Origin: Candidatus Omnitrophota bacterium
GTDB lineage: Bacteria > Omnitrophota > Gorgyraeia > Gygaellales > Profunditerraquicolaceae
Assembly: GCA_029571225.1 (NCBI GenBank)
Contig: JAKPTF010000035.1
Span: 12,575-76,574 of the forward strand
Length of the DNA: 64,000 nt
Reading direction: 5' to 3'
The translations under genes and the position numbers were made by a program. Numbering within the stretch: position 1 is the first letter of the stretch; each line of letters starts with the position of its first letter. Positions 1-17,010 of the stretch are shown one piece after another. The notes below the pieces were generated by a model, which ran no database searches, was not told the DNA's origin, and saw only the letters and a list, made by a program, of their open reading frames with translations.

Positions 1-180
1 CTGCTTCAGCGCGGTCAAAGCGCCCGCATTCTCGAAGATCGTATTGGCGCCGATGACCAGCGCACCCTGGGTTTTTTGTTCGGCGCGCACCGCATTCACG
101 ACATTGCCGAAATACGTCGAAACCGCCTGGTACACGGCCTGATCCATCTCAAACAACGGCGCGGGCATATTCGTTGCAAC
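1..180 (-). repeat. Shared C-terminal domain, copy 1 (partial, continues beyond window), preceded by KDGG at 181-189
   Basis: ...GRVLKDGGVATNMPAPLFEMDQ...QGALVIGANTIFENAGALTALKQ matches GALVIGANTIFENAGSIAALTQ (PGI-like) and GAVILGANAIMENAGSIAALEK (FBA-PFK-GAPDH). The DNA at 25-65 is also close to 7795-7830. Confidence 0.8.
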
Positions 181-3100
181 ACCGCCGTCCTTAAGCACGC
201 GGCCGACCTGCCCAGCGGGCTTTTGGGTCGTATCGACCACAACCGGAGTTTGAACATTTTCGAACACGACGACTTTTCTGGACGACGACGGATCAGCTTT
301 GTTCGCAGTTTCCAGCTTAGCCTCTGCGATGCTCGCGGCGATCCCGCCGAACCTGAGCAGCTCCTCCTCGGTCGCAAGGCGGCGCCATTCGTCCCAGAAG
401 ATATCAACGCCTGCCCACGCGGCGCCGAGTTTGAGCGTGTCGTAGCTGATAAAGCTCAAGCCTGTGCCCAGGTCCTTGAAATATTCCAGATATTTGTCCA
501 GCTCGAGCGTGTTGGCAGGCGTGGCGATATCGACACCGACCTCAAGGCCGTCCTCGCCGGGTATGATCTTCAAGTCTTTGAGGATGTCACGCCAGGCGAT
601 CATGATCGCGCCTGCTTGCGTTCCCTTGACATGGGTGATCTGCAGACCGAAGTTCTTGCGGTCCGCAGGCGGCAATGAATCGCGCACGTTCTTGAACGCC
701 TTCAATGCCATGCGGTTGATCTGCCACATGTCGCCGATTGCCCGCGCAGCTCCGGCAATGCCGTAATCGGGATTCGGGTTGACCTGCTCCTCGAGGAATC
801 CTGCGCGCAGATCGCTGAACTGGACACAGTTGAGGCTATCTGTCTTGTGGATCACCAGCGCGCCGGGATGAGCCGCCAGGGCGCTGCGCATCGCTTCTTC
901 GAACTTTCCGGTGATGAACTGCTCGGCGGTCCGGCCGTTCAGAATCTTCGAGATGCCCGCGTTCAGGTCATCAAAGTACTGCCTGCGCAGGCCGCTGATC
1001 CAATCGTTGCCCAGCGACACCGCGCCTTTTTGCTTCGCGTCATCAAGGACATCAAGCATGAACTTTTTGATCACCGGCTCGCGCAGCGACTCGACTTTGG
1101 TTTCCAGCCTGGCAAGCAGCCATGCCCGCTTTTCGGCGCTGGTTTCCTGCATCACTTTTTCGACTTCATCAACGAGCTTGGCGACATAATCGTCAAACAT
1201 CTTGGCCTGCTCGGTCCAATCCTTCTTTTCGTATGCCAGGATAGCCCGGGGATGATACACCATGGCTGCGTACACGTCATTGGCGTTTTCGGCTACTGCC
1301 GCTTTGACCGGAACCTGCGGTTTCGTTTGCGGCACGGGAAGCCTGCGCAGCGGGGTTTTGATCTTGACGACATCGAGATTCCCTCTGTATATCTTCTTTG
1401 CGCCATAATCGACCGTCACGAACTTGCCTTCCAGAATGCCGCGCGAGGCGTTGATGCCTTTCGCTATTGCCTTGATACGCGTCGGAATGATTGATTTGTT
1501 CTTGTCGAAAACATCCCACCCGGTAAGGTCTGCGTCGGCGTCAACGATGATCGCCGGGACATACTGCAGATGCTGCCAGTCAATGCCTCTGCGTTTTAAT
1601 CCGGCAACGGAATTGTCCCAAGCCTTTTTCCACAGCTCAAGGATTTTCTTCCTGGCGTTCGGGTCCGTGATGCTGGCGTCAACCTGCTCCTTGAATTTCA
1701 TTTCGGGGACATCCAGGTTGGTCCAGACAAACAGGCCGTTATCCAGTTTCCGCATAAGCGGTTTCTGCCCCGGCGTGAGCGTCAGATATTCGAAAGCGCT
1801 TGCTCCGACTGCCGCGGATATCTCTTCCTTGGAAAAGGCGACCGGATTTCTGGTTATCACCGCGATCTTTTCGAAGAAGCGCGAAGTGGACCGGGCATCT
1901 TTCAGGCTTTGCAACTTGAGCGATTCCTTTTTGGCCAGAAGATCAGGGCCCTGCAGGCCTTTCAATGCGTCAGGAATCAGATCTTCGATGCCGTCCACGA
2001 AAACGATTTCGCCCTTGATAATGCCTTTTTTCTGCCGGACTTCACCCTGGCTCAGGTCGAACAGCGGATGTTTTTTTGCGTCATCAGGCAGGGATTTTAT
2101 TTCTTTCGTCGCAGCCATGACGTCGTACCGTGTCATGGACGCAGGCAGCCGGACTTTCATCATGCTGACGCCGAATGAATCCAGAAGCACCATGATCTTG
2201 CCCGCGGTTTCGTAATCGCCGCGGTTGACCAGGGCGGTGATCGCCTCGCCGCACAGACTTGTCGCAACCTCTTCATCTTCTGCGGATGCGACAACCGCTT
2301 CGATCAGCTGGAGCATAACGTCGGCGCCTTCATCGATGAGCGGAAGCCGCTTGGTCCCCTCGTCGTAAAAGTATCCGGCGCGTTTCATCTCGGGTATGGC
2401 CGCGATGGCTGCCGGATCCATGATCTTGAGTTTCATCTTCGGGTCCTCGCGGTCTCCCATGCCGGCAAGATGCGAATAGTCGTTGGTGCCGAACGAAAAG
2501 AACGTATGCTCAACGCCGTATTTCTTATATTTCCTGCCCATATCGGCCATTTTCTTTGCAAGCTGCGGCACATCCATGGCAGCGCTCGGAACCTCGATCA
2601 TGATGCCGATTTCTTTGGGCAATTTTCCTTTTTGCCTGGCCTTATACTCGATGATCGTATCCAGTGTTTCCAGCTCGCGGATCGAGCGTATGAAAACATA
2701 AAACCAGGCCTGGTTTTTGGTATTCTGATGCGCTTCGATGACCGAATCGAACAGAAAATCGAGCACAAGCTGGTTCCCGCCGAACTGTTCGTCAAACGCC
2801 TCGATCTCAAGCGAAGTTCCGCGCAGGCCGACAAGGGGATTGACCCCCGGCCATGAGAATATCTCGGAGCCGGGCATGCCGCGGATCTTATCCTGGGCAA
2901 AATCATACGCGCGGTTCTTGGCAACCTGGTCAGGCGCGATGGTAAATCCCATGAGGTTATAAAAATAGAGAAACTCCTTGCTCACGTACTCTTTGAAGTT
3001 TGCATACCCTTTTTCATTCAGTTTTTTATTAACCTCATCCAGTATCCAGGGATGATTCTGCAGGTCGGTCAGAATGTTGTAATTATAGTTGAACCTGCGC

Positions 3101-6100
3101 TGGAACTTGCCGTAGGCATATGAGAAAAACTCATAGTCGTCCTTGTTTAATCCTTCCACAAAATTAAGATCGGCTTTTTGCTGCGGAAACACCTGCGCCG
3201 CATCTATCTTGTTCAACCTAATATCAGACATCAGGTCAAAAACAGACAGAACGGACAGCATATCGTTTATCTCCGGCAGCCGGCCGTAGGTTTTTACGAA
3301 CGTAGCTGCGGCTGTCGGGTGTTTGCGCATATACTCAAACATTTCCCGGCTCATAGTATCGAGGAACTTTTCCGCGCCTGGCATGGACGTGCGTGCCCGG
3401 TCATTCGCGTATACCCGCTGCGGCATTGCAATTGTGCCGTCTGCGATCTGCTGAAGCAGGAAATGTCCGTAGCCCGCATACACATTGATGCCGATCTCCT
3501 CGCCCTTGAACTCGGCGCGCGTCAGGGCATTGCCTGCAGAGTCGGTCGCGAGCATGATGGGTGAATTCTGCTGGGCTGCGCTCGTGGCCGCGATAATCTG
3601 GCCAATTTTCGGATAGGGCATGTTATCCGGATCTCCAGGAATCAAAGGCGGCTCAACCGTAAACTCTACGTAATTGACCGGTATGCGCTTTTCCGGATCA
3701 GAATCCATTTCGTAGATATTGCCGTTATTTGCGTCAACAGTAAGCGCATCGCCGGTCTTGACAAGCTGACCTCCAAGCATGACCTTCCCGGCGCCCGTTA
3801 CCGCCGGAATACCCTGCTCGCGGCAGAAAATCGCAGCATGACACGTATCCCCGCCACGGATCGTGACGACGGAATTAACGAGGCGCATAATCGGATCGTG
3901 GTTCGGATCCGCTTCCAGAAGGTATAGGATGACAGGAAGCGGGTTATCAGGGCCGATATCGTTCAAGTCAAACCCGATCTCCTGTATGCGCCGGCGTTCC
4001 TCATCGGTGAAATCCCCTGATTTCAACCTGCGGATCTGGTCGGCATGCCAGGCGATATCCTTGTTCGGATCGAACACAAGCACGTATCCGTGCGTGGCGT
4101 TTTCTCCTTTCGTACCGCTGGCAATCGGTTTGGCATCCGAATGATCTTCGATCCATTTTTCATCGGCCTCTGTCCTGGCACGGACGACGTCCGTTTTAAG
4201 GTATTCCGCGGTATACGGCCGCGCCTGGACATTGTACAGCCGCATGGGCATTGCCTTGATGCGCGCCTTATCCTCCTCGCTTTTAACCTCAGCGCGCTCG
4301 CCCCTGGCATCCACCCCCCATATCCGGCCGTCTACGTCTATTTCGTAGATGCGCAGCGCCTTGTCTTCGGGCGCGGTCCGGTCGACTTCGATGGCGAATT
4401 CGATATCGCGTTTGTCACCGTAATATTCGACGATATTCCACCCCATGCGCGCGACATGCGCTGCCATTTCGTCGGCAAACGTAAAGGTGTTCTGATGGAC
4501 CTTGGTCGTCTTGAAATTCGACGTAAAGCTGTTATCGACGAGCGCCCGCATGAGATAGCTCAGATTTTCCATCTCCACGCCGGAAAGGCCGAGTTTATTG
4601 AGCACGGCAATCCGTTCGGGAAGTTCGAATTCCTTGTTCTCCCATGTCTCTTTGATCATGTAGATGAACGTATCGGCTTTCTTCATATCGCCGAGCTGCG
4701 CTGCCAGTTTATGCATACCGCGGGTTGTCTCTTTTTCCGCTTTGGTGACTTCCTCGAAGACGTTACGCACAACGCCCGATAATTCCGCTTCCTGAAAACC
4801 TTTTTCGCCCTTGCGATGAGCAATGAGAAATCGCTCCTTGATAAAATCCATGACCGCCGCTTCTGGTTCTTTGGCTTTGATCATGGCGGCAATGTCATTG
4901 GCAATACGCTGCACCTGAGCCTTTTTCTGTTTTTCGTCAATACCTTCTGCTCTCAAATATCTGGTACCGTATAATTTGGTAGCCAGGATACCGTTAATGC
5001 GCTTGCCAACCTCGTCATAGGCAATCGCTTCTTTGAGCGTGACGGCCAGCGTATTCAATTCTTTTTCGCTCATCTTGCCCGTGAAAGACTCGATCACATC
5101 CTCGACATTGCGCATCTGAATAAGTTTATTGCCCTTGTTCTTTTCGATCACGAACCAGTGTTCGCCGTCATACGTCGCCATGACATACTTGTCAGGGCTG
5201 ACCTTGCCGCCGACCACGTTTTCCCCGTATCCGAACGCGATCTCGAAGCTGGCTACGATCGCCTTGGTGCCGGTGATCAGTCCGGTCTTTTTATCCCTGA
5301 AAAGCAGAGAATCATCGTTCTTGAACCATGCGTTGTATAAGGACTGAGCTACGCCGGCCATTTTCGTTGCGGGATTGACGGTAAACAGGACGCCTGCAAG
5401 ATAACTCTTGACCATCTGCATGATGACGACGTCGATGCCGATCTGTTCAGGATGCGTCACCTCTTCGGATTTCTTTTTCAGCACCTTGAGTGCCTCAGCC
5501 AGCCACTCTTCCCGCTCGTGACTCAAAATTTCTTCCATCGCATTCATAAGATTTACGGACCCGGGATTCGGGCTCGATATTTGCGACATCTGGTCGGCAT
5601 ACGCGGCATATTCGGGCTTGTTGAGCTTCTTGGCATATTCCCGCAGTTTTGCCACAATGTCCCAATACACATCCTGCGAAAGCTTGCCTTGATAGTCGAT
5701 GGCTCCTGAAAACTGCAGGAATGTGGCGTCATCGCGGTAGCTGACTGCGCGGTCGGTAAAAAGGCTTGCGAAATCAGCGCGGGTCTTATCAAGGACCGCT
5801 TTGTCGCCTTTGACGTTCAAAAATGTATCCGATTGCCCTGCCTGCGAACCGGTGGATACCGGCAGCCAGGTCTTGACATGGATATCCTCTTTCGTGCCCG
5901 AGGAGCGCACGGCGACTGCCGCAGGAACGGCCTTGCCTGTGACCTGATACCTGATCATGCTCAACTGGTGGTACATCGAGATGATCTCATCCTTGATATC
6001 CGTCGGGATGGGAGCGTTCTTTATGGTTTCCCTTATCTCAGACGTAACCACATCCCGCTTCTGGTCGTCCATGGTGTCCAGCGTCTGAAGCTCATTGAAT

Positions 6101-7179
6101 ATCTTTTCCCAGACGTTCCTGTTGTTCCTGACAAACTCGAAATATGCCGTCGTTGTGACGTTCTGTCCGCGCGGCACATCAACGATACGGGACATGACCG
6201 ACAGGCTCAATCCCTTGCCGCCTGCAAGCGCAAGGCCTACCTGCTTGGCCTGTCTGCGGCCGACCTCTTTGGCGTCTTCAGAAACCGACACCTGTGTCGA
6301 AACATCAGTCGCGACACCGGTCACTGCGATAGCCCCTGCCCCTGCGCCGGCGGTTTCCGCCCCGCCGGTCGGGCCAAACATCGGCCCCGCACCCATCCCC
6401 ATATGGACCATGTCGCTGCCGACGAGCAGGGCAGCCATTTCCTTTGCCTTTTCCATCCCGACTTTCCTGGCCAGTTCATACACATAATCGCGCAATTCGC
6501 CGAACTCCACGACCATGCGCTCATTGACCGGGACCAGGCTTCTTTTTTCCAGCACCAGATAATCGTGGACGAGAATATCCACGACCGAAATCCCTTCCCG
6601 TTTCATTGCCGCGACATCCTCTTCGATGTTCTCGGCATCGCGCGCGAACACCGATAGCGGCAGATCCGGAATATCGCTGACGATCGCCTTGACCACGTGT
6701 TCCCCGGCAGCGTCCTCTTTCACCAAAGCAAGGGGAATGTCCGTATAGGTCAGGGTGTAAAATTTATCGCCCGGGTTGACCGCGCCGAAATAGTCCGCAA
6801 GATTCGCCTTTGCCCTGGGAGAACGAGCCAGGTCTATCTGCTGTTTTATAAATGTCCCGTAGGCGAGATTATCGATGGTCGCCGAAATCTTATAGTCGCC
6901 CAGAAATGCCTTGAAGGCATCCGCGCCTTTTGCCTCCTGGGAAGCGCCTGACCCGCCGTCCTTTGGAGCGAGAATCTCGGTTTTGGCAACTGACGCGGGC
7001 GCGACGTCAAGCGCCCGGCGTATCTCGGTAAGCCTGCCGCCGTCACGCGCAGGCGCGGGACGCAGGTTCGAATCACCAGCCAGCGCGCGCAGGGGCGCTG
7101 CACTCACGATAAACTGGACGGAAACAATGACGGCGATTATCTTTCTGGTAAACATAGATTTCGTCAACCTCTGGAACAT
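1..7179 (-). CDS. Giant PEP-utilising enzyme (pyruvate,phosphate dikinase / PEP synthase family) with signal-like N-terminus and shared C-terminal domain; >=2393 aa, 3' end runs off the window
   Basis: Absent from the ORF track because it has no in-window stop. Reading the minus strand from ATG 7177-7179 (GGAGGA 5 nt upstream) gives an unbroken frame to position 1 (7179 nt = 2393 codons). No listed minus-strand ORF lies in this frame. Motifs read: GGKGLSLSVM, VAVRSSGTKEDI, GYGENVVGG, DIEFAIE (ATP-grasp half); TIRGGDTCHAAIFCREQGIPAVTG (phospho-His swivel, His codon 3838-3840); NPLVGLRGTS, GIMIEVPSAAM, FFSFGTNDYSHL, LCGEA (PEP/pyruvate barrel). The N-terminus MFQRLTKSMFTRKIIAVIVSVQFIVSAAPLRALA is signal-peptide-like. 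Confidence 0.88.
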   Translation of the reverse strand, partial: MFQRLTKSMFTRKIIAVIVSVQFIVSAAPLRALAGDSNLRPAPARDGGRLTEIRRALDVAPASVAKTEILAPKDGGSGASQEAKGADAFKAFLGDYKISATIDNLAYGTFIKQQIDLARSPRAKANLADYFGAVNPGDKFYTLTYTDIPLALVKEDAAGEHVVKAIVSDIPDLPLSVFARDAENIEEDVAAMKREGISVVDILVHDYLVLEKRSLVPVNERMVVEFGELRDYVYELARKVGMEKAKEMAALLVGSDMVHMGMGAGPMFGPTGGAETAGAGAGAIAVTGVATDVSTQVSVSEDAKEVGRRQAKQVGLALAGGKGLSLSVMSRIVDVPRGQNVTTTAYFEFVRNNRNVWEKIFNELQTLDTMDDQKRDVVTSEIRETIKNAPIPTDIKDEIISMYHQLSMIRYQVTGKAVPAAVAVRSSGTKEDIHVKTWLPVSTGSQAGQSDTFLNVKGDKAVLDKTRADFASLFTDRAVSYRDDATFLQFSGAIDYQGKLSQDVYWDIVAKLREYAKKLNKPEYAAYADQMSQISSPNPGSVNLMNAMEEILSHEREEWLAEALKVLKKKSEEVTHPEQIGIDVVIMQMVKSYLAGVLFTVNPATKMAGVAQSLYNAWFKNDDSLLFRDKKTGLITGTKAIVASFEIAFGYGENVVGGKVSPDKYVMATYDGEHWFVIEKNKGNKLIQMRNVEDVIESFTGKMSEKELNTLAVTLKEAIAYDEVGKRINGILATKLYGTRYLRAEGIDEKQKKAQVQRIANDIAAMIKAKEPEAAVMDFIKERFLIAHRKGEKGFQEAELSGVVRNVFEEVTKAEKETTRGMHKLAAQLGDMKKADTFIYMIKETWENKEFELPERIAVLNKLGLSGVEMENLSYLMRALVDNSFTSNFKTTKVHQNTFTFADEMAAHVARMGWNIVEYYGDKRDIEFAIEVDRTAPEDKALRIYEIDVDGRIWGVDARGERAEVKSEEDKARIKAMPMRLYNVQARPYTAEYLKTDVVRARTEADEKWIEDHSDAKPIASGTKGENATHGYVLVFDPNKDIAWHADQIRRLKSGDFTDEERRRIQEIGFDLNDIGPDNPLPVILYLLEADPNHDPIMRLVNSVVTIRGGDTCHAAIFCREQGIPAVTGAGKVMLGGQLVKTGDALTVDANNGNIYEMDSDPEKRIPVNYVEFTVEPPLIPGDPDNMPYPKIGQIIAATSAAQQNSPIMLATDSAGNALTRAEFKGEEIGINVYAGYGHFLLQQIADGTIAMPQRVYANDRARTSMPGAEKFLDTMSREMFEYMRKHPTAAATFVKTYGRLPEINDMLSVLSVFDLMSDIRLNKIDAAQVFPQQKADLNFVEGLNKDDYEFFSYAYGKFQRRFNYNYNILTDLQNHPWILDEVNKKLNEKGYANFKEYVSKEFLYFYNLMGFTIAPDQVAKNRAYDFAQDKIRGMPGSEIFSWPGVNPLVGLRGTSLEIEAFDEQFGGNQLVLDFLFDSVIEAHQNTKNQAWFYVFIRSIRELETLDTIIEYKARQKGKLPKEIGIMIEVPSAAMDVPQLAKKMADMGRKYKKYGVEHTFFSFGTNDYSHLAGMGDREDPKMKLKIMDPAAIAAIPEMKRAGYFYDEGTKRLPLIDEGADVMLQLIEAVVASAEDEEVATSLCGEAITALVNRGDYETAGKIMVLLDSFGVSMMKVRLPASMTRYDVMAATKEIKSLPDDAKKHPLFDLSQGEVRQKKGIIKGEIVFVDGIEDLIPDALKGLQGPDLLAKKESLKLQSLKDARSTSRFFEKIAVITRNPVAFSKEEISAAVGASAFEYLTLTPGQKPLMRKLDNGLFVWTNLDVPEMKFKEQVDASITDPNARKKILELWKKAWDNSVAGLKRRGIDWQHLQYVPAIIVDADADLTGWDVFDKNKSIIPTRIKAIAKGINASRGILEGKFVTVDYGAKKIYRGNLDVVKIKTPLRRLPVPQTKPQVPVKAAVAENANDVYAAMVYHPRAILAYEKKDWTEQAKMFDDYVAKLVDEVEKVMQETSAEKRAWLLARLETKVESLREPVIKKFMLDVLDDAKQKGAVSLGNDWISGLRRQYFDDLNAGISKILNGRTAEQFITGKFEEAMRSALAAHPGALVIHKTDSLNCVQFSDLRAGFLEEQVNPNPDYGIAGAARAIGDMWQINRMALKAFKNVRDSLPPADRKNFGLQITHVKGTQAGAIMIAWRDILKDLKIIPGEDGLEVGVDIATPANTLELDKYLEYFKDLGTGLSFISYDTLKLGAAWAGVDIFWDEWRRLATEEELLRFGGIAASIAEAKLETANKADPSSSRKVVVFENVQTPVVVDTTQKPAGQVGRVLKDGGVATNMPAPLFEMDQAVYQAVSTYFGNVVNAVRAEQKTQGALVIGANTIFENAGALTALKQ
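2230..3620 (-). other. PEP/pyruvate-binding TIM-barrel domain (PEP-utilisers C)
   Basis: GNALTRAEF, NPLVGLRGTSLEIE, KEIGIMIEVPSAAM, HTFFSFGTNDYSHLAGMGDRED and SLCGEAITA occur in canonical order. Confidence 0.8.
3700..4140 (-). other. Phosphohistidine swivel (PEP-utilisers mobile) domain
   Basis: IASGTKGENATHGYVLVF ... TIRGGDTCHAAIFCREQGIPAVTGAG ... GDALTVDANNGNIYE. The catalytic His codon is at 3838-3840. Confidence 0.85.
4385..6260 (-). other. ATP-grasp / nucleotide-binding region of the PPDK/PEPS-like protein (with insertions)
   Basis: Runs from GGKGLSLSVM (about 6200-6235) through VAVRSSGTKEDI and GYGENVVGGKVSPDKY (about 5190-5240) to YGDKRDIEFAIEVD (about 4385-4425). The motif order is as in PPDK_N. 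Confidence 0.75.
6952..7179 (-). other. N-terminal leader: signal-like hydrophobic segment + NLRP motif + two DGG sites
   Basis: MFQRLTKSMFTRKIIAVIVSVQFIVSAAPLRALAGDSNLRPAPARDGG...ILAPKDGG. DGG codons are at 7036-7044 and 6952-6960, checked against the DNA. Confidence 0.6.
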
Positions 7180-7217
7180 TGTACTCCTCCCATGTTAGGA
7201 CGATTTTAAAATATCGG

Positions 7218-10073
7218 TTATATCTTGTTCAATGTATCTTCGAATATCACCTGGAGTCTGGCTATGTCATCGCTGACCGCAACCAGCGGAATATCCGATA
7301 TCTGAGCTGTTAATTCATTAAGGGACTTGGCATCCGCCTCGCTGATCATGCCCCTGTCCTTAAATGCCTGCACCATTTTGGCGAACTGCGCTCTCGTAGT
7401 GCCGACGTCGAATATAATGGCGATCGCCTTGGCGATTGCCAGCGGGACTGCGTTGATCTGTTTGACCGCCCCTGCCGTCCGCGCGGTCGAAACATGGACC
7501 ATCTGCAGCTCGCGATTATTGTTGAAGAATACGCTTGCATCGGGTACCTTGTACTCATCCTTGATATTATCGAGATCGAGATCCGAGTTGATGAGCACGA
7601 CTTTTCTGGGTGATATTTTGAGCTTCTCCATTGCCATGAGGGTTTCGCCCAGGCCCGTGTAGATTGTCGCTATTTTGTCAACGCCCAGCGCCTTTAACGC
7701 TGCGACGTCATCGTTATTCCTGGCCCATACGGCTATGGTGAGGACATTGGCCGCGTCGCGTGCCTGAGTGAGCGCTGCAATGCTGCCCGCGTTCTCGAAT
7801 ATGGTGTTGGCACCGATGACCAGCGCTCCTTCGATCCCTTCTATTTCGCGAACGCCCTTGATGATACCTTCATACATAAATGACGTTGCGCTGTACACGT
7901 TTCGGTCGGCGTCCTCGATGAACGCGGCAGCTTTACCAACAAGAGAATCGGCCGCATCCCGTACCCGTGCGAGGTCCAGATACGCCTTGACCTTGGAGAA
8001 AAAGTCCGCATACGCGCTTTCGACCTCAGGGGTCATCTGCTCGGCAACGAACAATACCGCTTTGCGCGGATCGAGCGAAGTGTACATCGCCTTGACCGTG
8101 CCGATGGTCTGGGCGAAAAGCAGGTTATCGTCGAATGGCACAGCCGGCTGGGGATTATTCAATGACGTAAAATATGTGGAAAAGAACATGTTCCTGCCGT
8201 CCTGGATGTTCTGCTGGTACGAATGGTTCTTATCCGGCCCTTCACCGAGTTTCGAAGGTATCCGGAGGCCGCGGGTAAATATGTCCCGGCGGGCGTCTTC
8301 AAGAATCCTCGTCATGGCAGGGCTCAGCTTGCCGTATGAAGACAACTCAGCGGCATTGAACTCGGTCTCGCCTGCTTTGGCCTTCTGTTCCAGAATCTGG
8401 GTGATTGCCGCATACACTGCAGCCGCGTTCTGCATATCCGCGCCCATTCTGCGCACCTGCGCGTCCAGAGCATCGGCAGTGATAATCCCTGACATGACAA
8501 GCGGCGCATAATACAGCGTGAATGCGTTTAAGTAATCGGCCGAAAACGGCGCCCATGCTGCCAGAACATCCTGTTTGGTTTGCCCGGAATCCTTCATGGC
8601 TTGAGCAATCGCCTTTGATTCTTTTTTGTATGCTTCGACGCCCGGTTGATTCACAAACCTGATATCCCATAAATAACCGATCGTCGCTACCATGCGCTGC
8701 AATCCGAGCATAACCCCGCCGATATCGGTAATATCCTTGATATTGATCTCCAGGGTCGGATACCCGTTTTCCTGCAGATACTTCCAGAATTCCCTGTTTG
8801 TCTCTGTTGCGCCGAGGTTAATCCTTAGGAAAACGCGGTCATTCTCATCAGCCGGCTTCAAAGACGCTTTCCACTGGTCATTGTCCGTTCCCAGGTCTTC
8901 TCCGTAAAAGACCGTGACGCCTTTTCCATCCTTGCCGAGCGATTCCTCGAATAGTTGTTCGGCCCACATAGGCAGAGCATTCAGTTTTTTCGGCACCAGC
9001 ATGGTCAGCTTGTCTTGTTTCAGATTTCTGGCGCGCACGAAGATCTCTGCCCCCATTTTCAGAAAATCGCCCTCACTGAGGCCCGAATTCATCCGCACGG
9101 CGCTCTTTAATATCGGCTCGATATCATCAGCCCCGGGCGTCAATGACCACGGAAGCATGAATATATTCGTGGTCGGCGCGGTAAACCGTCCCCCCACGTC
9201 CTTGAGATTATATACTTTGCCGGGGTTGACATCGTTCATCTGGATATATGCCCCCTGGCCTTTTTTGACATGGTCCCCATCCCACGGGCTGCCGGGATCG
9301 GTCACGTAAAACAAATGTTTTTCCGGGCCGGACACTGCGTATGCTTCGAATAATTTCCTGAAATATTTCTCGTGCTCAGTGGTTTCCTGGGTGGTCGCTG
9401 TCTTTGACATGAAAACCGCAACGGTTTTTTCCAAACCCGCCTTCATGTCATTACCCTCGGCACGCGCGATCTCATCGAGTATGGCTTTTATCGCGGCAGG
9501 ATCGGTGGTCCTCAGGCTATAGAACGGAGTACCTTCAGAATCGGGATCAAATGTTTGTTTGACCAGCTCCACGCTTAAGCCTGACCCGCCCATTCCACAG
9601 AACACCGCGTATTTAAAGCGGTTTACCAGCATTAAATTTTTAAGCCCTGTCGCCTGCCAGGGGACATATTCGTCAGCGCGCGCCAGATCGTCCAGAATAG
9701 CCTGGGCATTCCTCACGGTCCACCCAAGGCGAGAGGTAACGCCGTCTTCCTCATATCCCCACGCCGCGAAATCGCTGTCCGCCGACTCAAGCCGCTCGTT
9801 CATGCGCTCGGCCTTCAATCGTTGCATAAGCGTTTCGACTTCCCGTTTAACATTCACCGGCTTTCCGCCGTCTTTCAAAAGCGATAAGCGGCTGATGCCG
9901 AGATCCTGGCCAAGACTGTGTAAGCGCGAATTGCTCTGCTTTGCCGAAACCGGCCGGAGGTTATTGCCAGCAGCATAACCAGGAACAGCAATGCTATCGA
10001 CAAAAAAAGCCGCGCTCATGGCTACGGCTATTGCTTTACGAACGCGCCTTAAAGTTTCCGTCGAAGCAGGCAT
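7218..10073 (-). CDS. Glucose-6-phosphate isomerase (PGI/SIS family)-like protein with signal-like leader and shared C-terminal domain, 951 aa
   Basis: ORF track entry. GGGGGAGA sits upstream of the ATG. PGI motifs: FCGMGGSGLS, FMSKTATTQETTE, VGGRFTAPT, EESLGKDGKG, GPDKNHSYQQNIQDG. The N-terminus RKAIAVAMSAAFFVDSIAVPGYAAG is signal-like. Confidence 0.88.
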   Translation of the reverse strand: MPASTETLRRVRKAIAVAMSAAFFVDSIAVPGYAAGNNLRPVSAKQSNSRLHSLGQDLGISRLSLLKDGGKPVNVKREVETLMQRLKAERMNERLESADSDFAAWGYEEDGVTSRLGWTVRNAQAILDDLARADEYVPWQATGLKNLMLVNRFKYAVFCGMGGSGLSVELVKQTFDPDSEGTPFYSLRTTDPAAIKAILDEIARAEGNDMKAGLEKTVAVFMSKTATTQETTEHEKYFRKLFEAYAVSGPEKHLFYVTDPGSPWDGDHVKKGQGAYIQMNDVNPGKVYNLKDVGGRFTAPTTNIFMLPWSLTPGADDIEPILKSAVRMNSGLSEGDFLKMGAEIFVRARNLKQDKLTMLVPKKLNALPMWAEQLFEESLGKDGKGVTVFYGEDLGTDNDQWKASLKPADENDRVFLRINLGATETNREFWKYLQENGYPTLEINIKDITDIGGVMLGLQRMVATIGYLWDIRFVNQPGVEAYKKESKAIAQAMKDSGQTKQDVLAAWAPFSADYLNAFTLYYAPLVMSGIITADALDAQVRRMGADMQNAAAVYAAITQILEQKAKAGETEFNAAELSSYGKLSPAMTRILEDARRDIFTRGLRIPSKLGEGPDKNHSYQQNIQDGRNMFFSTYFTSLNNPQPAVPFDDNLLFAQTIGTVKAMYTSLDPRKAVLFVAEQMTPEVESAYADFFSKVKAYLDLARVRDAADSLVGKAAAFIEDADRNVYSATSFMYEGIIKGVREIEGIEGALVIGANTIFENAGSIAALTQARDAANVLTIAVWARNNDDVAALKALGVDKIATIYTGLGETLMAMEKLKISPRKVVLINSDLDLDNIKDEYKVPDASVFFNNNRELQMVHVSTARTAGAVKQINAVPLAIAKAIAIIFDVGTTRAQFAKMVQAFKDRGMISEADAKSLNELTAQISDIPLVAVSDDIARLQVIFEDTLNKI
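7221..7931 (-). repeat. Shared C-terminal domain, copy 2 (about 237 aa, ends VIFEDTLNKI)
   Basis: GALVIGANTIFENAGSIAAL...VWARNNDD...IATIYTGL...DLDNIKDEYKVPDASVFF...INAVPLAIAKAIAIIF...GMISEADAKSL...IPLVAVSDDIARLQVIFEDTLNKI. It is collinear with the 1726-aa protein tail. Confidence 0.85.
7974..9776 (-). other. PGI-like catalytic region
   Basis: Covers aa about 100-700 of the 951-aa protein. The PGI motifs listed for the CDS occur in canonical order. Confidence 0.75.
9864..10073 (-). other. N-terminal leader: signal-like segment + NLRP + KDGG
   Basis: MPASTETLRRVRKAIAVAMSAAFFVDSIAVPGYAAGNNLRPVSAK...SRLSLLKDGG. DGG codons at 9864-9872 were checked in the DNA. Confidence 0.6.
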
Positions 10074-10120
10074 TATCTCCCCCTTTTTATCGGCTTAGAT
10101 GGCATTACGATATATGCATG

Positions 10121-10153
10121 CCTGCGCGGCAGGCATCATGCCTGCCGCGCAGG
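10121..10153. repeat. GC-rich perfect inverted repeat (16+1+16 nt) in the intergenic gap between the FBA-PFK-GAPDH and PGI-like genes
   Basis: CCTGCGCGGCAGGCAT-C-ATGCCTGCCGCGCAGG. It lies 10 nt downstream of the TAA (10163-10165) on the transcribed strand. No U-tract follows it. Confidence 0.6.
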
Positions 10154-10162
10154 TAATTGATA

Positions 10163-13100
10163 TTAAATCTTGTTGAGCGTATCTTCGTACACGGTCTGCA
10201 TTGCTGCGACTTCGTCGCTGACAGACACCAGCGGCACATCGGCCAGCTGCGCGGCGAGCTGCGTGATGTTAAGCAGGTCTTCCGAGCTGATGAGGCCTTT
10301 GTTCATATACGCAGCGGCCATGTTCTGGAGCTGCTGTCTGACCGTATCCTCGGTATTGAAGATCATGGCGAGTGCCTTTGCCATGACAAGCGGCATCGCA
10401 TTGATGCGTTTCTGCGTGACGGCCGCGCGGGATCCGGTTACGCGCACGTTCTTCACCTTTGCCTTTTCGAAGAACAGCGACGCATCGGATACGGTAAACT
10501 CGGCTTCGATATTGTCCATATCGGCATCCGCGCTGATGAGCGCGATCCTGGCCTGCGGGATCTTTGCCGCGGTCACTGCCTCAAGTGCCGCCTTCAAACC
10601 AACATGGATCGTCGCGATCCGGCCGACCCCTAATGCCTCAAGGGTCAGCTTAGCCGCGTCGTCCTTTGCCCATACGCTGAAGTCCACAACGCCTGCCGCA
10701 TCTTTTGCTTTCTCGAGCGCCGCGATGCTGCCGGCGTTTTCCATGATGGCGTTGGCGCCGAGGATAACCGCGCCCCTGGCGTTCTGGACATCGCTGATTG
10801 ATTTGACGAGATCATCGAAGTTCAACGCGCCTGCATTGTACACGCTTGCATCGCTCTTAAGCACAGTCTCGATGAGATCGGCGATATCGACCATTTCGGG
10901 AAGCACCGTCTCTGTTTGCGCAAGCGCAACGGAGGCGCCTCCGTCCTTTGCATAGTCGCCATTGACGAGGGCGCGCATTCTCACGCCGTCCACCATCCAC
11001 GGTGACCATTTGGAGATCATCTGGTTGGGAGCGGCTGACTGGTTGTCATACAGGCCTTTGATGATCACGGTCTTCTTGTTTTCCAGCACCTGGATCAGCA
11101 CGCTGTCGATGATTGATATATTGTTCCAGCCGACGACCGCATTGACATCGAGCGGGCCAGGGTTGACCTCTGGATCGCCCTCATAGAATTTCACCACTCC
11201 GTCCGACTTGTTGAGCGCGAAATCCTTCAAAGCGGCACGGACCTCCTCCACGGTAGTTTCTCTTTTCAGGTTCAGGGTCACTTCCCACAGGGACGCAGAA
11301 ACCGTATCCGTGCGCACAGCGGTTATCTCGAACTTGCCTTTGAGCTGCGGTATCATCTTGAACAGGTTCTTCTTGGCCCCGGTGGAGGCGGGAATGATAT
11401 TGTCGCGGATCGAATCTCCGCGGGCAATATCAAGCGGGTCGCGCGCCCTCTTGCTCTTCATGGGGAAAGTCTCGTTCGAATCGGTCTCCGAATGGATGGT
11501 CAGGCCGGTCCCGTTGACGATACCGAACTCGTCCCACATGGCCTTGATGACCGAGATCATGGCGTTGGACGTGCAACTGAGCGTGTCAACGATCTTGACA
11601 TCCGGCCCGATCTGTTTGCGCATGGCAGAATACAGCGCTTCTTTGAACACGGCGCTGACGGATTTATCGACCGTGTCGGCGCTGACGCCTTCCTGAAGGA
11701 ACTTTTCCTTGAGCATATTCTTCACCGCGTCGGTGTTGACCGGGGAGGCGGCGACAACGGGGAATCCGGCTTCCATGAACTCCTTGAAAATGCGCGGCTG
11801 GACCTTTTCGTCAGTCGGGCCGTAATACGATACCACATCCGGCTTGACTCCGAGTGTCCTGACGGTATCGAGCACCTGCTGATTCGTCGTTTCTGGGCCG
11901 AAATACGGAATCTTTATATCGGGCCTTCCTATATTTTTGTCGCCCGGCACGAAGATGAAATTGACCTCGACGCCGTCAACGACCCTGCGCTCGTCCTTGA
12001 GCACGCGCATACCTTTCACCTGGTACGGCCCGAACGGGCCGTTGTACCTGCTGTTCATGCGCACGAATTCCTCTGCGCTGGCTTCTTTGCCGCCCTTCAT
12101 GGACTTGAGAGCCGCCAGATTGACGCCCGGCTCCCAGTTCTTATAGAAAAGCGCAAACGCTCCGGCGCGGAAAATAAGCGCGTTCGCCGCGATGACCACG
12201 ATGTTCTGGTCCTGCAATGCCAGATCAAGCTTCTTGGGCGTATTGCTTTTCGCAAAAACGCCCATTCCGGCAAGGATCTTGACCTGCGCAAGCTGCCGGT
12301 CATCGATACGGTGCAGGATCCTTCTGATCGACTGCATGACTTCCTGGTTATCGCCGCTTTCCTTCTTGATTGTATTCAATTTCCACAGAACAGCCTTCAT
12401 TTCATCAAGGCCAAGGGACAGTATCTCACCCGGCTTGAGCTGATACAAACGCTTGACCGCAGCCTGATACCGCAGTTGATTCATAGCTGCCTTACCAAGC
12501 TTGAGGTTTGTTTTTTCATTGACAAGCGCCATATTCGCCAGCAGGTATTCATCGCGGTGGGCGCCTTTGTAATCCAGCTGCCTGCCGCCGAGTTCCTGAT
12601 CGAACGGTATGGACTTGATCTGGCCCTTATAGGCGTAGAGCAGCTGATTGTTCTGAAGGTCGGCGATTTTCTCAACAGCCGCTTTGCCGAGCATGCCGGT
12701 CATTTCCTCGTCAAGTTTGGAAATATCAGCCGAGCGGAAAAGATAATCGGCCTTGCCTGCGAGGCTGATGTCGATTTTATCTTCCTTGAGCGCCGTCTTT
12801 ACCACGGCCGCGACGATTAAACCGGCGTTCTCGAGTTTGGGATGACCGAAATCGTCAACGCCGGCTTTCATTGATTTAATGAACGCCGCTTTGGCAACCG
12901 GATCGCTGTTGAACGCCGCCAGCAGCAGCTTGACATCGGCATTGCGGGGCTTGACGACTTCAAGGTCTCCGTTGTCGTTCAGCCTGAAGCCGTCGGTCGC
13001 GATGCTGGCTCCTTCAGCTACGACGACGACGCCGTATTTGTTCTGCTTGTAATACGCTCGCAGATCATCCACCAGCTTCTTCAGATCCACCATCTCTTCG

Positions 13101-15313: not shown

Positions 15314-15329
15314 CGTTTCTTCTCCTTTT

Positions 15330-16859
15330 TTAATCTTCCGCAAGATATGTATCCTCGAGTTCTCCCTGTTCCCCCCGGAGAACGGAATAATAGATTGACG
15401 GGTCAGACCGCTGCGATATCGAAGGGGTAACCACGGCGTAGGAATAACCGTGCTCCTTGAACAACCTGCTCAAACCGGATGTGTGAAAACCGCCGGTAAT
15501 GACAGCGACATAGCTGCTGTCCGATGCGGTATTGATCTTCCGGGCGATATTGCGCATGAACGCCTGTTCGCGGTCGATCCCGACTTTATAAAAACTGTCG
15601 AGCGCATCGAAATTTTCATCGATGACCGTAGACGCGACGGGCCGTGACGGAAGGCCGTACCTTCTGCATGAATCGGATAGAAACACGATCCATCCGGCGG
15701 TCACATAGCGGGAGCGGTCGGCCTGCATGGCGTCGTATTCTGCGGGCGTCAGGTCGAGCCGCAGGAACTGATCGAGGGTATCGAGCGCCTCCGAAATGTC
15801 GCTCAGGCGGCGTTCGTCATTATTAACAAAAAGCTCCTGCCGCACACGCGCCTCCAGTTCGGAGATCTCCCTGATCAATTTCTCCGCATCGATATTCCTG
15901 CCCATAGCGACATACCGCATGTATGCGTCGAACTGCGGATAGGCTGCCGCCAGATCAAGGTGGTCCTGCGCGGCATTGCGCAAAAAGTCATAAAATTCCT
16001 GAGCGGATATCTTTTTGTCCTTGAAATCCGCCGTCTTATCTATCAACTCCTTAATCGAGGCGCCCTGCAATTTCTGGGCAAGGTCCTTGATGAATGCGCT
16101 CCGCTGGGACTCCGCCTGTTTGAAATCGATCGTCTTTTCAAGTTCGAGGCTTTCCCTGAACAAATTGACCTGCTGGCATTCGGACAGAGAGATACTCTTC
16201 TTTTGCGCCGATTCGGCAAGATATGTAACGTATTTGACCAGCGGTAACGCTTTATGCTTGAATGCTCGTTTCTGCGCATCGAGCTCAATCAGCTCGGGAT
16301 TGAACATATGCGGCTTGAGCGCCTCGACAATAGCGGCCAGCCCGTTGATATCGTTCAATCCCTGCTCCTTGTATGCCTCTATATTAAGGAAGGAATCCAG
16401 GTTGCTGTCGTATAATGCGGGGTCTTCAATGCCGAAAAGCTCAAGGTTATGGTCGGAAACGATGTCGAGGTATTCTTCCCCGGATATCTTGCCGTCGCGG
16501 AGGTATTTTTCAGCGACTTCCTCGCGCGCCTTTTTATCCGCAAAGTCCCTTAAGAACGAAAGGCTCACGTCGCCGCTGCCCCCTTCGACCATGATGAGCC
16601 TCAATTTCTTTTCGCGGGCAAGATAATCAAGGATCTGCGCAAGGTTCTTTTGTGCTTCGTAGTTACAATGGGCGTCCTGGATCTGTATTATTGCAGGGCC
16701 GGGCCGTCCTGCCTGTGGCGCTTCGAAGACTTCCTTGATTGTGCCGAACTGGGAAGGTATCTGAAGATTTTTTAAAGGGGTGCTTGGAAAAACGGGATTG
16801 ACATAAATTAAGGAAAGCAATAAGAAGAATGGAATAGTTTTTTTAAGTTTTTTATTCAT
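15330..16859 (-). CDS. Secreted/anchored hypothetical protein (about 509 aa), family not recognised
   Basis: The ORF track gives 15330..16991. I prefer the ATG at 16857-16859 (MNKKLKKTIPFFLLLSLIYVNPVFPSTP, a clean signal peptide). The 44-codon upstream extension is encoded by a hairpin and T-tract and looks non-protein. Conserved-looking strings: IQIQDAHCNYEAQKN, IMVEGGSGD, AVITGGFHTSG. Confidence 0.7.
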   Translation of the reverse strand: MNKKLKKTIPFFLLLSLIYVNPVFPSTPLKNLQIPSQFGTIKEVFEAPQAGRPGPAIIQIQDAHCNYEAQKNLAQILDYLAREKKLRLIMVEGGSGDVSLSFLRDFADKKAREEVAEKYLRDGKISGEEYLDIVSDHNLELFGIEDPALYDSNLDSFLNIEAYKEQGLNDINGLAAIVEALKPHMFNPELIELDAQKRAFKHKALPLVKYVTYLAESAQKKSISLSECQQVNLFRESLELEKTIDFKQAESQRSAFIKDLAQKLQGASIKELIDKTADFKDKKISAQEFYDFLRNAAQDHLDLAAAYPQFDAYMRYVAMGRNIDAEKLIREISELEARVRQELFVNNDERRLSDISEALDTLDQFLRLDLTPAEYDAMQADRSRYVTAGWIVFLSDSCRRYGLPSRPVASTVIDENFDALDSFYKVGIDREQAFMRNIARKINTASDSSYVAVITGGFHTSGLSRLFKEHGYSYAVVTPSISQRSDPSIYYSVLRGEQGELEDTYLAED

Positions 16860-16863
16860 GGGC

Positions 16864-16924
16864 AAATAAAAAAGCCACGACTCACTGAATCCTCTTTTCC
16901 GGAGGCATTCAGTCATCCGTGGCC
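16864..16924 (-). terminator. Imperfect long hairpin followed by TTTTTTATTT (candidate intrinsic terminator of the giant gene, or a leader attenuator)
   Basis: Minus strand: GGCCACGGATGACTGAATGCCTCC-ggaaaa-GAGGATTCAGTGAGTCGTGGC-TTTTTTATTT. The stem has about 17 pairs with a few mismatches and one bulge. It ends 4 nt before the ATG at 16859. Confidence 0.45.
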
Positions 16925-16945
16925 ATTCCATACTGTATGTGCTTC

Positions 16946-16965
16946 TTTTGAAAGCGCTTTCAAAA
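16946..16965. promoter_or_regulatory. Perfect 20-nt palindrome TTTTGAAAGCGCTTTCAAAA
   Basis: Read directly from the sequence. It lies between the promoter-like element and the hairpin. It could be an operator or a small stem-loop. Confidence 0.35.
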
Positions 16966-16981
16966 CGCCTTACTATTAAAA

Positions 16982-17010
16982 AAGATACCATAGAACACCA
17001 TTTCTGTCAA
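16982..17010 (-). promoter_or_regulatory. Sigma70-like promoter candidate (TTGACA - 17 nt - TATCTT)
   Basis: The minus strand has TTGACA at 17005-17010, a 17-nt spacer and TATCTT at 16982-16987. It sits in the AT-rich 217-nt gap after the giant gene. Confidence 0.3.

What the first reader, a model, noticed from the sequence alone, without database searches (positions are those of the whole stretch)
1..10906. Unrecognised ~240-aa C-terminal domain (…GANxIxENAGSIAAL … VWA(K/R) … DxDNI … INAxPL … PLVxVSD … EDTLNKI) appended to unrelated enzymes
Collinear copies lie at 7221-7931 and 10166-10906. A partial third copy lies at 1-180 and continues off the window. They are attached to PGI-like, FBA-PFK-GAPDH and PPDK-like bodies respectively. 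The two complete copies both end in the same EDTLNKI C-terminus.

I do not recognise the family. A shared appended module on sequential pathway enzymes suggests a docking or scaffolding domain (a metabolon or compartment-targeting tag) or a common regulatory domain.
Basis: seen in the sequence. Interest (0 to 1): 0.7.

Follow-up and report, generated by a model that had tools for sequence, protein, structure and literature searches.

The report
Shared tail domain on Omnitrophota glycolytic enzymes
A previously undescribed ~240-residue folded domain sits at the very end of almost every glycolytic enzyme in a group of tiny Omnitrophota bacteria, which suggests these enzymes are tagged for a common complex or destination, though no function has been shown.

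Summary
Genes B (PGI-like) and C (FBA-PFK-GAPDH) end in collinear ~240-aa domains: 44% identity over 231 aa, E=1e-67. Gene A (PPDK-like) starts a third copy at the window edge, and a matching public contig completes it, also ending ...EDTLNKI.

A profile search of 1.84 billion proteins finds about 100 clusters. Every organism-labelled record seen was Candidatus Omnitrophota. The domain is nearly always the last module and ends Y-E-E-T-x-x-K-I. Carrier bodies cover PGI, PFK, FBA, FBPase, TIM, GAPDH, PGK, enolase and PPDK.

Most carriers also share a signal-peptide-like N-terminal leader. They sit in a conserved locus: giant gene, then a TraB/TIKI-like gene, then the glycolytic fusion genes. The domain is exchanged between carriers independently of the enzyme body.

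Best reading: a non-catalytic address or assembly module (confidence 0.4). A ligand-sensing regulatory domain is the main rival. I judge it a new domain family.

A 'DGG' motif marks module boundaries throughout these polyprotein-like genes.

The parts
7221..7943 (-). Complete copy of the C-terminal domain (gene B, aa 711-951), ending ...FEDTLNKI then stop
   Evidence: HMM E 4e-121. BLASTP against the gene C copy gives 44% identity, E 1e-67. AF2 model pLDDT 90.6, pTM 0.90.
10166..10888 (-). Complete copy of the C-terminal domain (gene C, last 241 aa), ending ...YEDTLNKI then stop
   Evidence: HMM E 8e-109.
1..153 (-). First ~51 aa of a third copy (gene A); the rest lies off the window
   Evidence: HMM positions 10-60, E 3e-17. 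Completed in contig L006, ending FEDTLNKI. 66% identical to the gene B copy.
1..7179 (-). Gene A (partial): PPDK/PEP-synthase-like polyprotein, 2573 aa in full
   Evidence: Pfam PPDK_N, PEP-utilizers, PEP-utilizers_C. Full length from L006.
7218..10073 (-). Gene B: leader + PGI-like body + domain (951 aa)
   Evidence: NCBI record HQJ15126.1 names it 'hypothetical protein', Candidatus Omnitrophota.
10163..15343 (-). Gene C: leader + FBA class II + PFK + GAPDH + domain (1726 aa from the TTG; an ATG lies 10 codons downstream)
9864..10073 (-). N-terminal leader of gene B: K/R-rich start, hydrophobic segment, ...YAAG, NLRP box, KDGG at aa 67-70
   Evidence: The same architecture is present in 41-42 of 52 full-length carriers.
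15128..15343 (-). N-terminal leader of gene C (hydrophobic segment, DHLR box, KDGG at aa 69-72)
6952..7179 (-). N-terminal leader of gene A (hydrophobic segment, NLRP box, two DGG motifs)
10937..10945 (-). DGG junction motif 16 aa upstream of the domain in gene C (aa 1467-1469)
181..189 (-). DGG junction motif ~10 aa upstream of the domain in gene A
15330..16991 (-). Gene D: conserved exported-looking protein with a TraB/TIKI/erythromycin-esterase/ChaN-like fold, always between the giant gene and the carriers. A candidate partner or processing enzyme.
17077..63996 (-). Giant ORF E (15,639 aa), a mosaic polyprotein-like gene immediately upstream in the same orientation. It carries no copy of the domain.

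Best explanation
The domain is a lineage-specific, non-catalytic module that acts as a common address or assembly tag for the glycolytic fusion proteins of these Omnitrophota. It has a Rossmann-type α/β fold with a HAD-like topology in which the catalytic aspartates are lost.

Proposed mechanism (all steps inferred; only the architecture, the carrier set and the synteny are shown):

1. Each glycolytic polyprotein is made with a Sec-type signal or anchor leader and this C-terminal domain.
2. The domain binds a shared partner. The binding surface would be the conserved crater at the C-terminal edge of its β-sheet together with its conserved free tail Y-E-E-T-x-x-K-I-COOH.
3. The partner could be other copies of the domain (homo- or hetero-oligomerisation, as in the C-terminal pseudo-phosphatase domain of CMP-sialic acid synthetase). 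It could also be a product of the adjacent giant gene or gene D.
4. The enzymes of the pathway therefore end up in one place or one complex.
5. In the subset of carriers with a DGG junction just upstream, the domain may be clipped off after delivery.
For: **The family is real and rare**
- About 100 clusters (50% identity) in 1.84 billion proteins.
- All five genome loci are Candidatus Omnitrophota, as are the names.

**Position**
- In 66 of 87 copies that are complete at their C-end, nothing follows the domain.
- The end consensus is Y-E-E-T-[VL]-x-K-I.

**Carrier set is one pathway**
- PGI, cupin GPI, PFK, FBA/GatZ, FBPase, TIM, GAPDH, PGK, enolase and PPDK.
- Also aldose-1-epimerase and UDPGP.
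- Carriers occur as tandem genes.
- The fourth gene of this operon (TIM-M54-PGK-enolase, off the window) ends in a divergent copy...EEEFFNKV.

**No catalytic signature**
- Across 62 copies the near-invariant residues are A45, N51, W73, N164, L168, P219, Q231 and Y234.
- No conserved Asp/His/Cys/Ser set exists, and the HAD nucleophile position is G44-A45.

**Modularity**
- C versus P0032: bodies 77% identical, domains 30%.
- C versus P0005: bodies 39%, domains 65%.
- B versus P0007: bodies 67%, domains 42%.
- The A and B copies in this genome are 66% identical.

**Shared N-terminal leader**
- 42 of 52 full-length carriers have the hydrophobic segment and 41 have an xLR(P) box.

**Conserved locus**
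- Giant gene, then gene D, then carriers, in at least three further genomes.

**Structural precedent**
- The best local matches are capless KdsC/MDP-1-type HADs.
Against: - No interaction, oligomerisation or localisation was tested.
- At 240 aa the domain is much larger than known targeting tags (dockerin, T9SS CTD, encapsulation peptides).
- Conserved residues (G44, A45, N51, G53, W73, A74, S120, D123) sit where Rossmannoid folds bind small ligands. That fits a sensor as well as it fits a protein-binding site.
- In genes A and C, and in 11 of 62 database carriers, a DGG junction lies directly upstream. If DGG is a cleavage site, a covalent tag would be lost.
- Copies within one genome are only 43-66% identical, and the fourth is very divergent. 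That is less uniform than expected for a signal read by a single receptor.
- The signal-peptide call rests on inspection and hydropathy only.
Confidence: 0.4

Rival explanations
1. It is a common regulatory (ligand-sensing) domain. The Rossmannoid crater binds a metabolite, nucleotide or phosphate compound and modulates whichever glycolytic enzyme it is fused to. This would give pathway-wide coordinated control.
For: - The most conserved residues map to the C-terminal ends of β1, β2 and β4 and the loops after them (GAN..NAG, VWA, S..D). This is the canonical ligand site of HAD/Rossmann-like folds.
- A Trp plus Asn/Asp pocket is typical of sugar binding (my knowledge).
- The carriers are one pathway.
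Against: - It does not explain the strictly terminal position and conserved free C-terminus, the shared N-terminal leader, or the synteny with the giant gene and gene D.
- The domain is swapped between enzyme bodies without regard to enzyme type. That is hard to reconcile with a tuned allosteric interface.
- A DGG junction separates it from the enzyme in some carriers.
Confidence: 0.22
2. It is an export or sorting domain or a pro-domain that is removed. After Sec-dependent export via the N-terminal leader, the C-terminal domain is recognised by a dedicated translocation or processing machinery. It is then cleaved at or near the DGG junction, analogous in logic to T9SS C-terminal domains.
For: - Signal-like leaders are present on carriers.
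- The domain is strictly C-terminal and modular.
- DGG lies upstream of the domain in A, C and 11 of 62 other carriers.
- Protease-type modules are nearby: M50 in the giant ORF, an M54 module flanked by DGG in the fourth carrier, and a TraB/TIKI-like gene D.
Against: - The cargo is restricted to cytoplasmic-type ATP/NAD-dependent enzymes, whose export is itself unproven.
- Most carriers, including gene B, lack DGG before the domain.
- The fold is α/β and 240 aa, unlike any known secretion CTD.
- No recognisable outer-membrane translocon was seen in the window.
Confidence: 0.18
3. It is an enzyme in its own right, a divergent HAD-like phosphatase or mutase. It could be a metabolite-repair phosphatase or the phosphoglycerate mutase not seen among the carriers.
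For: - A motif-IV-like 'NSDxDxDNI' follows β4 in the window copies.
- No PGAM module was detected among the carrier bodies scanned.
Against: - The nucleophile position is Gly-Ala (A45 in 61 of 62 copies). The motif II Ser/Thr position is Trp-Ala. D123 is only ~60% conserved. There is no conserved His, Cys or Ser.
- No HAD Pfam model hits even at E<=10.
- hhalign against a bona fide HAD module gives probability 0.2%.
- One copy per polyprotein is an odd dosage for an enzyme.
Confidence: 0.07

Closest known systems
Capless (C0) HAD-superfamily phosphatases: MDP-1 (1u7o), KdsC/YrbI family (3mmz, 2p9j)
   Different: - Only ~110 of 241 residues align, at 8-19% identity.
- Catalytic motifs I and II are absent.
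- No sequence-profile relationship.
- The domain adds two N-terminal helices and a ~75-aa C-terminal helical/β-hairpin subdomain.
C-terminal KdsC-like pseudo-phosphatase domain of vertebrate CMP-sialic acid synthetase (3ewi)
   Different: It occurs on a single enzyme family, not a pathway-wide tag. There is no detectable sequence homology, and oligomerisation of the Omnitrophota domain is untested.
Dockerin modules of cellulosomal enzymes
   Same: The logic matches: one shared, exchangeable terminal module on many functionally related enzymes, which assembles them on a giant scaffold protein.
   Different: Dockerins are ~70-aa Ca-binding duplicated F-hand modules on extracellular glycoside hydrolases. 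There is no Pfam dockerin hit here, the fold is different, and no partner (cohesin equivalent) has been identified.
PTS1/PTS2 targeting of glycolytic enzymes to trypanosomatid glycosomes
   Same: Glycolytic enzymes as a set carry a C-terminal address. The terminal consensus here (x-K-I/L/V-COOH) superficially resembles PTS1 ([SAC]-[KRH]-[LM]).
   Different: PTS1 is a tripeptide read by eukaryotic Pex5. Here the signal would be a 240-aa folded domain in a bacterium, and no peroxin-like machinery is known. The resemblance is probably coincidental.
T9SS C-terminal domains (CTD) of Bacteroidota
   Same: The architecture of an N-terminal Sec signal plus a conserved, removable C-terminal domain on unrelated cargo.
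   Different: T9SS CTDs are 70-100-aa β-sandwiches on secreted hydrolases and adhesins. There is no NCBIfam or Pfam CTD hit, and the fold here is α/β.
'Archaeovorin' giant proteins of Omnitrophota (West-Roberts et al. 2023, bioRxiv 10.1101/2023.11.21.568195)
   Same: Same phylum and same kind of locus. That paper notes glycolytic enzyme domains and PPDK domains in giant proteins and suspects proteolytic processing.
   Different: Text searches of that paper, the 2026 Omnitrophota preprint and Seymour et al. 2023 turned up no mention of this C-terminal domain, the shared leader or a DGG junction motif. The carriers here are separate 1-2.6-k-aa genes downstream of the giant gene.

Membership tests
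HAD superfamily (haloacid dehalogenase-like hydrolases) | Rossmannoid α/β core with HAD strand order and a 'squiggle' after β1 | tested here: inconclusive
   [not shown]
HAD superfamily (haloacid dehalogenase-like hydrolases) | Motif I DxD (nucleophile Asp) at the end of β1 | tested here: not met
   The sequence at the end of β1 is G44-A45-N46. A45 is present in 61 of 62 copies, and no Asp occurs there.
HAD superfamily (haloacid dehalogenase-like hydrolases) | Motif II Ser/Thr at the end of β2 | tested here: not met
   The end of β2 is V72-W73-A74, with W73 in 54 of 62 copies.
HAD superfamily (haloacid dehalogenase-like hydrolases) | Motif IV acidic residues after β4 | tested here: inconclusive
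   'NSDLDLDNI' is present in the window copies, but D123 is conserved in only ~60% of 62 copies.
HAD superfamily (haloacid dehalogenase-like hydrolases) | Detectable sequence or profile homology to HAD families | tested here: not met
   No Pfam hit at E<=10 and no NCBIfam hit. hhalign against the bona fide HAD module of the giant ORF gives probability 0.2%.
CMP-sialic acid synthetase-type C-terminal pseudo-HAD oligomerisation domain | C-terminal position on a metabolic enzyme with loss of catalytic residues | tested here: met
CMP-sialic acid synthetase-type C-terminal pseudo-HAD oligomerisation domain | Forms the oligomerisation interface | not testable with these tools
Dockerin (cellulosome) | ~70-aa duplicated Ca-binding F-hand module with a Pfam Dockerin_1 match | tested here: not met
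   No Pfam hit at E<=10. The domain is a 241-aa α/β fold.
T9SS C-terminal sorting domain | 70-100-aa β-sandwich CTD recognised by NCBIfam/Pfam CTD models | tested here: not met
T9SS C-terminal sorting domain | Cargo carries an N-terminal Sec signal peptide | tested here: inconclusive
   42 of 52 carriers have a K/R-rich start, a hydrophobic segment and small residues before an xLRP box. No signal-peptide predictor was available.
PTS1 peroxisomal/glycosomal targeting signal | C-terminal tripeptide [SAC]-[KRH]-[LM] read by Pex5 | not testable with these tools
   The terminal consensus is [NGSD]-K-[ILV]. The organism is a bacterium, and no Pex5-like receptor was searched for.

The most novel reading that the evidence does not exclude
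These Omnitrophota run an exported or otherwise compartmentalised glycolysis, a bacterial analogue of a glycosome or a cellulosome-like 'glycolysome'. In this reading:

- All EMP enzymes are made as polyproteins with a dedicated signal leader.
- They are processed at DGG junctions by locus-encoded proteases (M54 or M50 modules, TraB/TIKI-like gene D).
- They are gathered through the shared C-terminal domain onto products of the adjacent giant 'Archaeovorin' gene.

The domain would then be the first pathway-wide folded address tag known in bacteria.
Probability: 0.18. Interest if true: 0.92.

Novelty: new variant of a known kind. Interest (0 to 1): 0.72.

Why it matters
Glycolytic enzymes are the textbook example of soluble, untagged cytoplasmic proteins. 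Here a whole bacterial lineage attaches the same exchangeable folded domain, and the same signal-like leader, to essentially every enzyme of the pathway. It also encodes these enzymes next to its giant gene.

If the domain is an address or assembly tag, three things follow:

- It would be a direct handle on how ultra-small, probably predatory Omnitrophota organise energy metabolism.
- It would bear on what their enigmatic giant proteins are for.
- It would help settle whether the giant ORFs are polyproteins. The DGG junction motif supplies the candidate cleavage points that West-Roberts et al. said were missing.

The domain HMM is also a practical marker for finding these loci. The domain itself is a small, well-predicted target for structural and binding studies.

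Tried and rejected
- **Known-family assignment.** Pfam (E<=10), NCBIfam (E<=10), PDB sequence profile search (best E 0.48) and Foldseek against PDB all gave nothing significant.
- **Active HAD phosphatase.** Rejected on motifs and profile comparison.
- **Extra copies in the giant ORF or gene D.** None found.
- **afdb50 fold search.** The library was unavailable.
- **The search for related loci with the diverse 24-sequence alignment.** The 5-sequence alignment was used instead, so the locus sampling is biased to close relatives.
- **Retrieving the full fourth gene of this contig through a homolog search.** Only one partial relative was found. The gene was recovered from JGI locus L009 instead.
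- **Kizina et al. 2022 (AEM; proteomics of Ca. Velamenicoccus archaeovorus).** Could not be read. I therefore cannot exclude that the leader, the DGG motif or the domain is mentioned there.
- **Literature searches for Omnitrophota with polyprotein, glycolytic enzymes or C-terminal domain.** No relevant description was found.
- **Idea that the domain is the missing phosphoglycerate mutase.** Considered and judged unlikely, because no catalytic residues are conserved.

Full report
**1. What is in the window**

Every long ORF lies on the minus strand and the genes are tightly packed.

| Gene | Window coordinates | Size | Content |
|---|---|---|---|
| E | 17077-63996 | 15,639 aa | giant mosaic ORF |
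| D | 15330-16991 | 553 aa | no family hit |
| C | 10163-15343 | 1726 aa | FBA class II, PFK, GAPDH_C |
| B | 7218-10073 | 951 aa | PGI |
| A | open frame 7194..1 | runs off the window | PPDK_N, PEP-utilizers, PEP-utilizers_C |

NCBI records for the same proteins come from a MAG labelled Candidatus Omnitrophota and are named 'hypothetical protein' or '6-phosphofructokinase, partial'.

**2.

- The C-terminal ~240 aa of B and C align at 44% identity (70% positives) over 231 residues with two gaps, E=1e-67. Both end EDTLNKI.
- An HMM of five family members finds three copies in the six-frame translation and none elsewhere: B, C, and the first 51 residues of a copy at window 1-153.
- Contig L006 is identical to the window at the one 100-nt probe I checked and encodes the same gene B protein. 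It completes gene A at 2573 aa, and its domain also ends FEDTLNKI.

**3. It is an unrecognised family with a confident fold**

- No Pfam or NCBIfam model hits the domain even at E<=10.
- A profile search of PDB sequences gives nothing better than E=0.48.
- AF2 on a 5-sequence alignment gives pLDDT 90.6 and pTM 0.90. The model has two N-terminal helices, a five-stranded parallel α/β core, and a ~75-residue helical/β-hairpin C-terminal part whose last helix runs to the protein's final residue.
- Foldseek finds nothing at E<=1e-3. Its only high-probability local matches are capless KdsC-type HADs.
- Across 62 full-length copies the near-invariant residues are A45, N51, W73, N164, L168, A173, P219, L220, Q231 and Y234.
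- The HAD nucleophile position is Gly-Ala, the motif II position is Trp-Ala, and the motif IV-like Asp is only ~60% conserved.
- hhalign against the genuine HAD module in the giant ORF gives probability 0.2%.

The domain therefore resembles a HAD core in topology but is not a HAD enzyme. No catalytic residue set is conserved.

**4. Who carries it**

The word-indexed search found only three relatives. The exhaustive profile search of 1.84 billion cluster representatives found 100 at E<=1e-3, of which 91 were at E<=1e-10.

*Position.* In 66 of 87 copies that are complete at their C-end, nothing follows the domain. The terminal consensus is Y-E-E-T-[VL]-x-K-I.

*Bodies* (BLAST against the window proteins and Pfam):

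- PPDK-like (the largest group)
- PFK/GAPDH/FBA fusions
- PGI, and cupin-type GPI
- TIM, and TIM-PGK
- PGK
- enolase
- FBPase-FBA, and GatZ-like aldolase
- aldose-1-epimerase and UDPGP
- a few NADP-Rossmann, DHH and metallophosphoesterase bodies
- about ten with no Pfam hit

*Taxonomy.* All five hits in the species-representative genome collection are Candidatus Omnitrophota.

*Arrangement.* Carriers occur as tandem genes in other loci. In the window's own organism the next gene downstream of A is off the window (L009 3924-10856). It encodes TIM, an M54 protease module, PGK and enolase. It ends in a divergent, shortened copy of the domain...EEEFFNKV.

Four consecutive genes therefore carry most of the EMP pathway plus PPDK. 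The steps covered are PGI, PFK, FBA, TIM, GAPDH, PGK and enolase. No phosphoglycerate mutase module was detected. Each of the four genes ends in a member of this family.

**5. Further shared features of carriers**

*(a) A common N-terminal leader.* It consists of:

- a K/R-rich start;
- a 15-20-residue hydrophobic segment;
- small residues (..YA/FA/AG);
- an [DNS]xLR[P] box;
- in about half of carriers, a DGG within the first 110 aa.

Of 52 full-length carriers, 42 have the hydrophobic segment and 41 have the box. By inspection this looks like a Sec signal peptide or signal anchor. I had no predictor to confirm it.

*(b) The domain is exchanged independently of the enzyme body*.

| Pair | Body identity | Domain identity |
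|---|---|---|
| C vs P0032 | 77% | 30% |
| C vs P0005 | 39% | 65% |
| B vs P0007 | 67% | 42% |
| A vs B (this genome) | unrelated enzymes | 66% |

*(c) Conserved synteny.* The order giant gene (30-32 k aa), gene D homolog, carriers recurs in a 1.87-Mb contig and in 280-470-kb contigs of other Omnitrophota, and in L013/L014.

**6. The DGG junction motif (outside the finding, but it bears on it)**

- The giant ORF holds 37 DGG tripeptides, against 4.2 expected from shuffling (maximum 10). Genes A, B and C hold six more.
- The residue before DGG is K or R at 25 of 43 sites.
- No site falls inside a Pfam-detected module, and many abut one:
  - TIM 753-951 follows DGG 751.
  - CoaE 10405-10587 lies between 10267 and 10605.
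  - ROK lies between 12244 and 13182.
  - The cation-efflux module follows 13881.
  - HAD 14295-14480 precedes 14500.
  - The six-AAA+ block lies between 4125 and 6455.
- In carriers, DGG ends the leader. In A, C and 11 of 62 others it also sits just before the C-terminal domain.
- The M54 protease module of the fourth gene is itself bracketed by DGG sites.

This is the pattern expected of polyprotein junctions. West-Roberts et al. 2023 suspected cleavage of Omnitrophota giant proteins but stated that cleavage points were unknown. I found no mention of DGG in that paper or in the 2026 Omnitrophota preprint. Cleavage itself is not shown here.

**7. Gene D**

- It has no family hit.
- At least 219 homologs were found. 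Of the few records that carry an organism name, all are Omnitrophota/Omnitrophica except one MAG labelled Deltaproteobacteria; all named records are annotated as hypothetical.
- Invariant motifs are QDAHCNYEAQK, VEGG and GGFHT.
- The AF2 model has pLDDT 85.
- This is the TIKI/TraB/EreA superfamily, which includes putative metalloproteases (my knowledge).
- It also starts with a signal-like segment. It is a candidate partner or processing enzyme for the carriers, by inference only.

**8. Interpretation**

Several features point to a non-catalytic module that gives a set of pathway enzymes a common address or assembles them:

- restriction to one pathway;
- a strictly terminal position with a conserved free tail;
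- no catalytic signature;
- cassette-like exchange between carriers;
- a co-occurring leader;
- a fixed genomic partnership with the giant gene and gene D.

The C-terminal pseudo-phosphatase domain of CMP-sialic acid synthetase shows that a dead HAD-like domain can serve as an oligomerisation platform. I put this reading at 0.4.

| Reading | Confidence | Main reason |
|---|---|---|
| Address or assembly module | 0.40 | the features listed above |
| Ligand-sensing regulatory domain | 0.22 | conserved residues line the canonical Rossmannoid ligand crater (GAN..NAG loop, VWA, S..D) |
| Removable export or pro-domain | 0.18 | leader, terminal position, DGG upstream in some carriers |
| Active enzyme | 0.07 | HAD-like fold, but no catalytic residues |

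The presence of DGG upstream of the domain in some carriers but not others is unexplained under every model.

**9. Novelty**

I found no description of this domain, of the shared leader, or of the DGG motif in the Omnitrophota giant-gene literature I could read.

The domain is a new family. The concept of a shared terminal module that docks, targets or regulates related enzymes is known from dockerins, PTS signals and T9SS CTDs. Applying it to a whole cytoplasmic-type pathway in a bacterium has no precedent that I know of. I therefore rate it a new variant of a known kind, with a sizeable upside if the compartmentalised or assembled glycolysis reading proves right.

Noticed in passing
window 17077-63996 (-) and genes A-C; e.g. 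10937-10945, 181-189: A 'DGG' tripeptide, usually [KR]-D-G-G, is strongly enriched: 37 in the giant ORF against 4.2 expected. It falls only between Pfam-detected modules, at the end of the N-terminal leaders, and sometimes just before the C-terminal domain. It is a candidate polyprotein junction or cleavage motif and is not mentioned in the giant-gene papers I read.
   Followed up: partly
the 43 DGG sites in window genes A, B, C, E: The Asp codon at DGG sites is GAC in 38 of 43 cases, although GAT:GAC is 496:445 across the giant ORF. The Gly codons vary. This nucleotide-level bias is unexplained.
   Followed up: no
window 17077-63996 (-): The giant ORF is 15,639 aa, complete in the window, with ~46 TM-like segments. 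It is a mosaic of unrelated modules: DUF1152, TIM, TPR, two M50-like peptidases, six midasin/MoxR-type AAA+ domains, what looked like a VWA-like stretch when I read the translation (no tool confirmed it), CoaE, HEAT, ROK kinase, cation-efflux and HAD. It resembles the 'Archaeovorin' class.
   Followed up: partly
giant ORF aa 2936-3247, 3639-3683, 3831-4128, 6607-6888, 8070-8358, 8592-8790, 9584-9779, 10061-10270: Eight copies (one partial) of a ~290-aa repeat of unknown function (...EGVPAAAR...WTHVYLKT...LNKALDP...). In six of the eight the BLAST match runs to within a few residues of a DGG; copies 6607-6888 and 8592-8790 stop 14-19 aa short of the next one. The repeats are interspersed with the TM-like clusters along the ORF. 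A possible scaffold or receptor module.
   Followed up: partly
[not shown]
   Followed up: yes
window 9864-10073, 15128-15343, 6952-7179 (-); carriers: Carriers share a conserved N-terminal leader: a signal-peptide-like segment followed by an [DNS]xLR[P] box. This implies export or membrane anchoring of ATP/NAD-dependent glycolytic enzymes, which is itself a puzzle.
   Followed up: partly
L009 3924-10856 (gene immediately downstream of gene A, off the window): The fourth glycolytic polyprotein (TIM, an M54 archaemetzincin-type protease module, PGK, enolase) has its protease module bracketed by DGG sites (aa 1032 and 1241). It ends in a divergent copy of the domain.
   Followed up: partly
P0060 (database carrier); L016 16030-19575: In some carriers the enolase halves appear in permuted order (Enolase_C before Enolase_N) by Pfam coordinates. 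TIM modules in the carriers match only the C-terminal half of the Pfam TIM model; the TIM module of the giant ORF matches profile positions 54-242 of 245.
   Followed up: no
C-termini of 66 domain copies: The terminal consensus ...[NGSD]-K-[ILV]-COOH superficially resembles the PTS1 signal that sends glycolytic enzymes to trypanosome glycosomes. This is probably coincidence.
   Followed up: no
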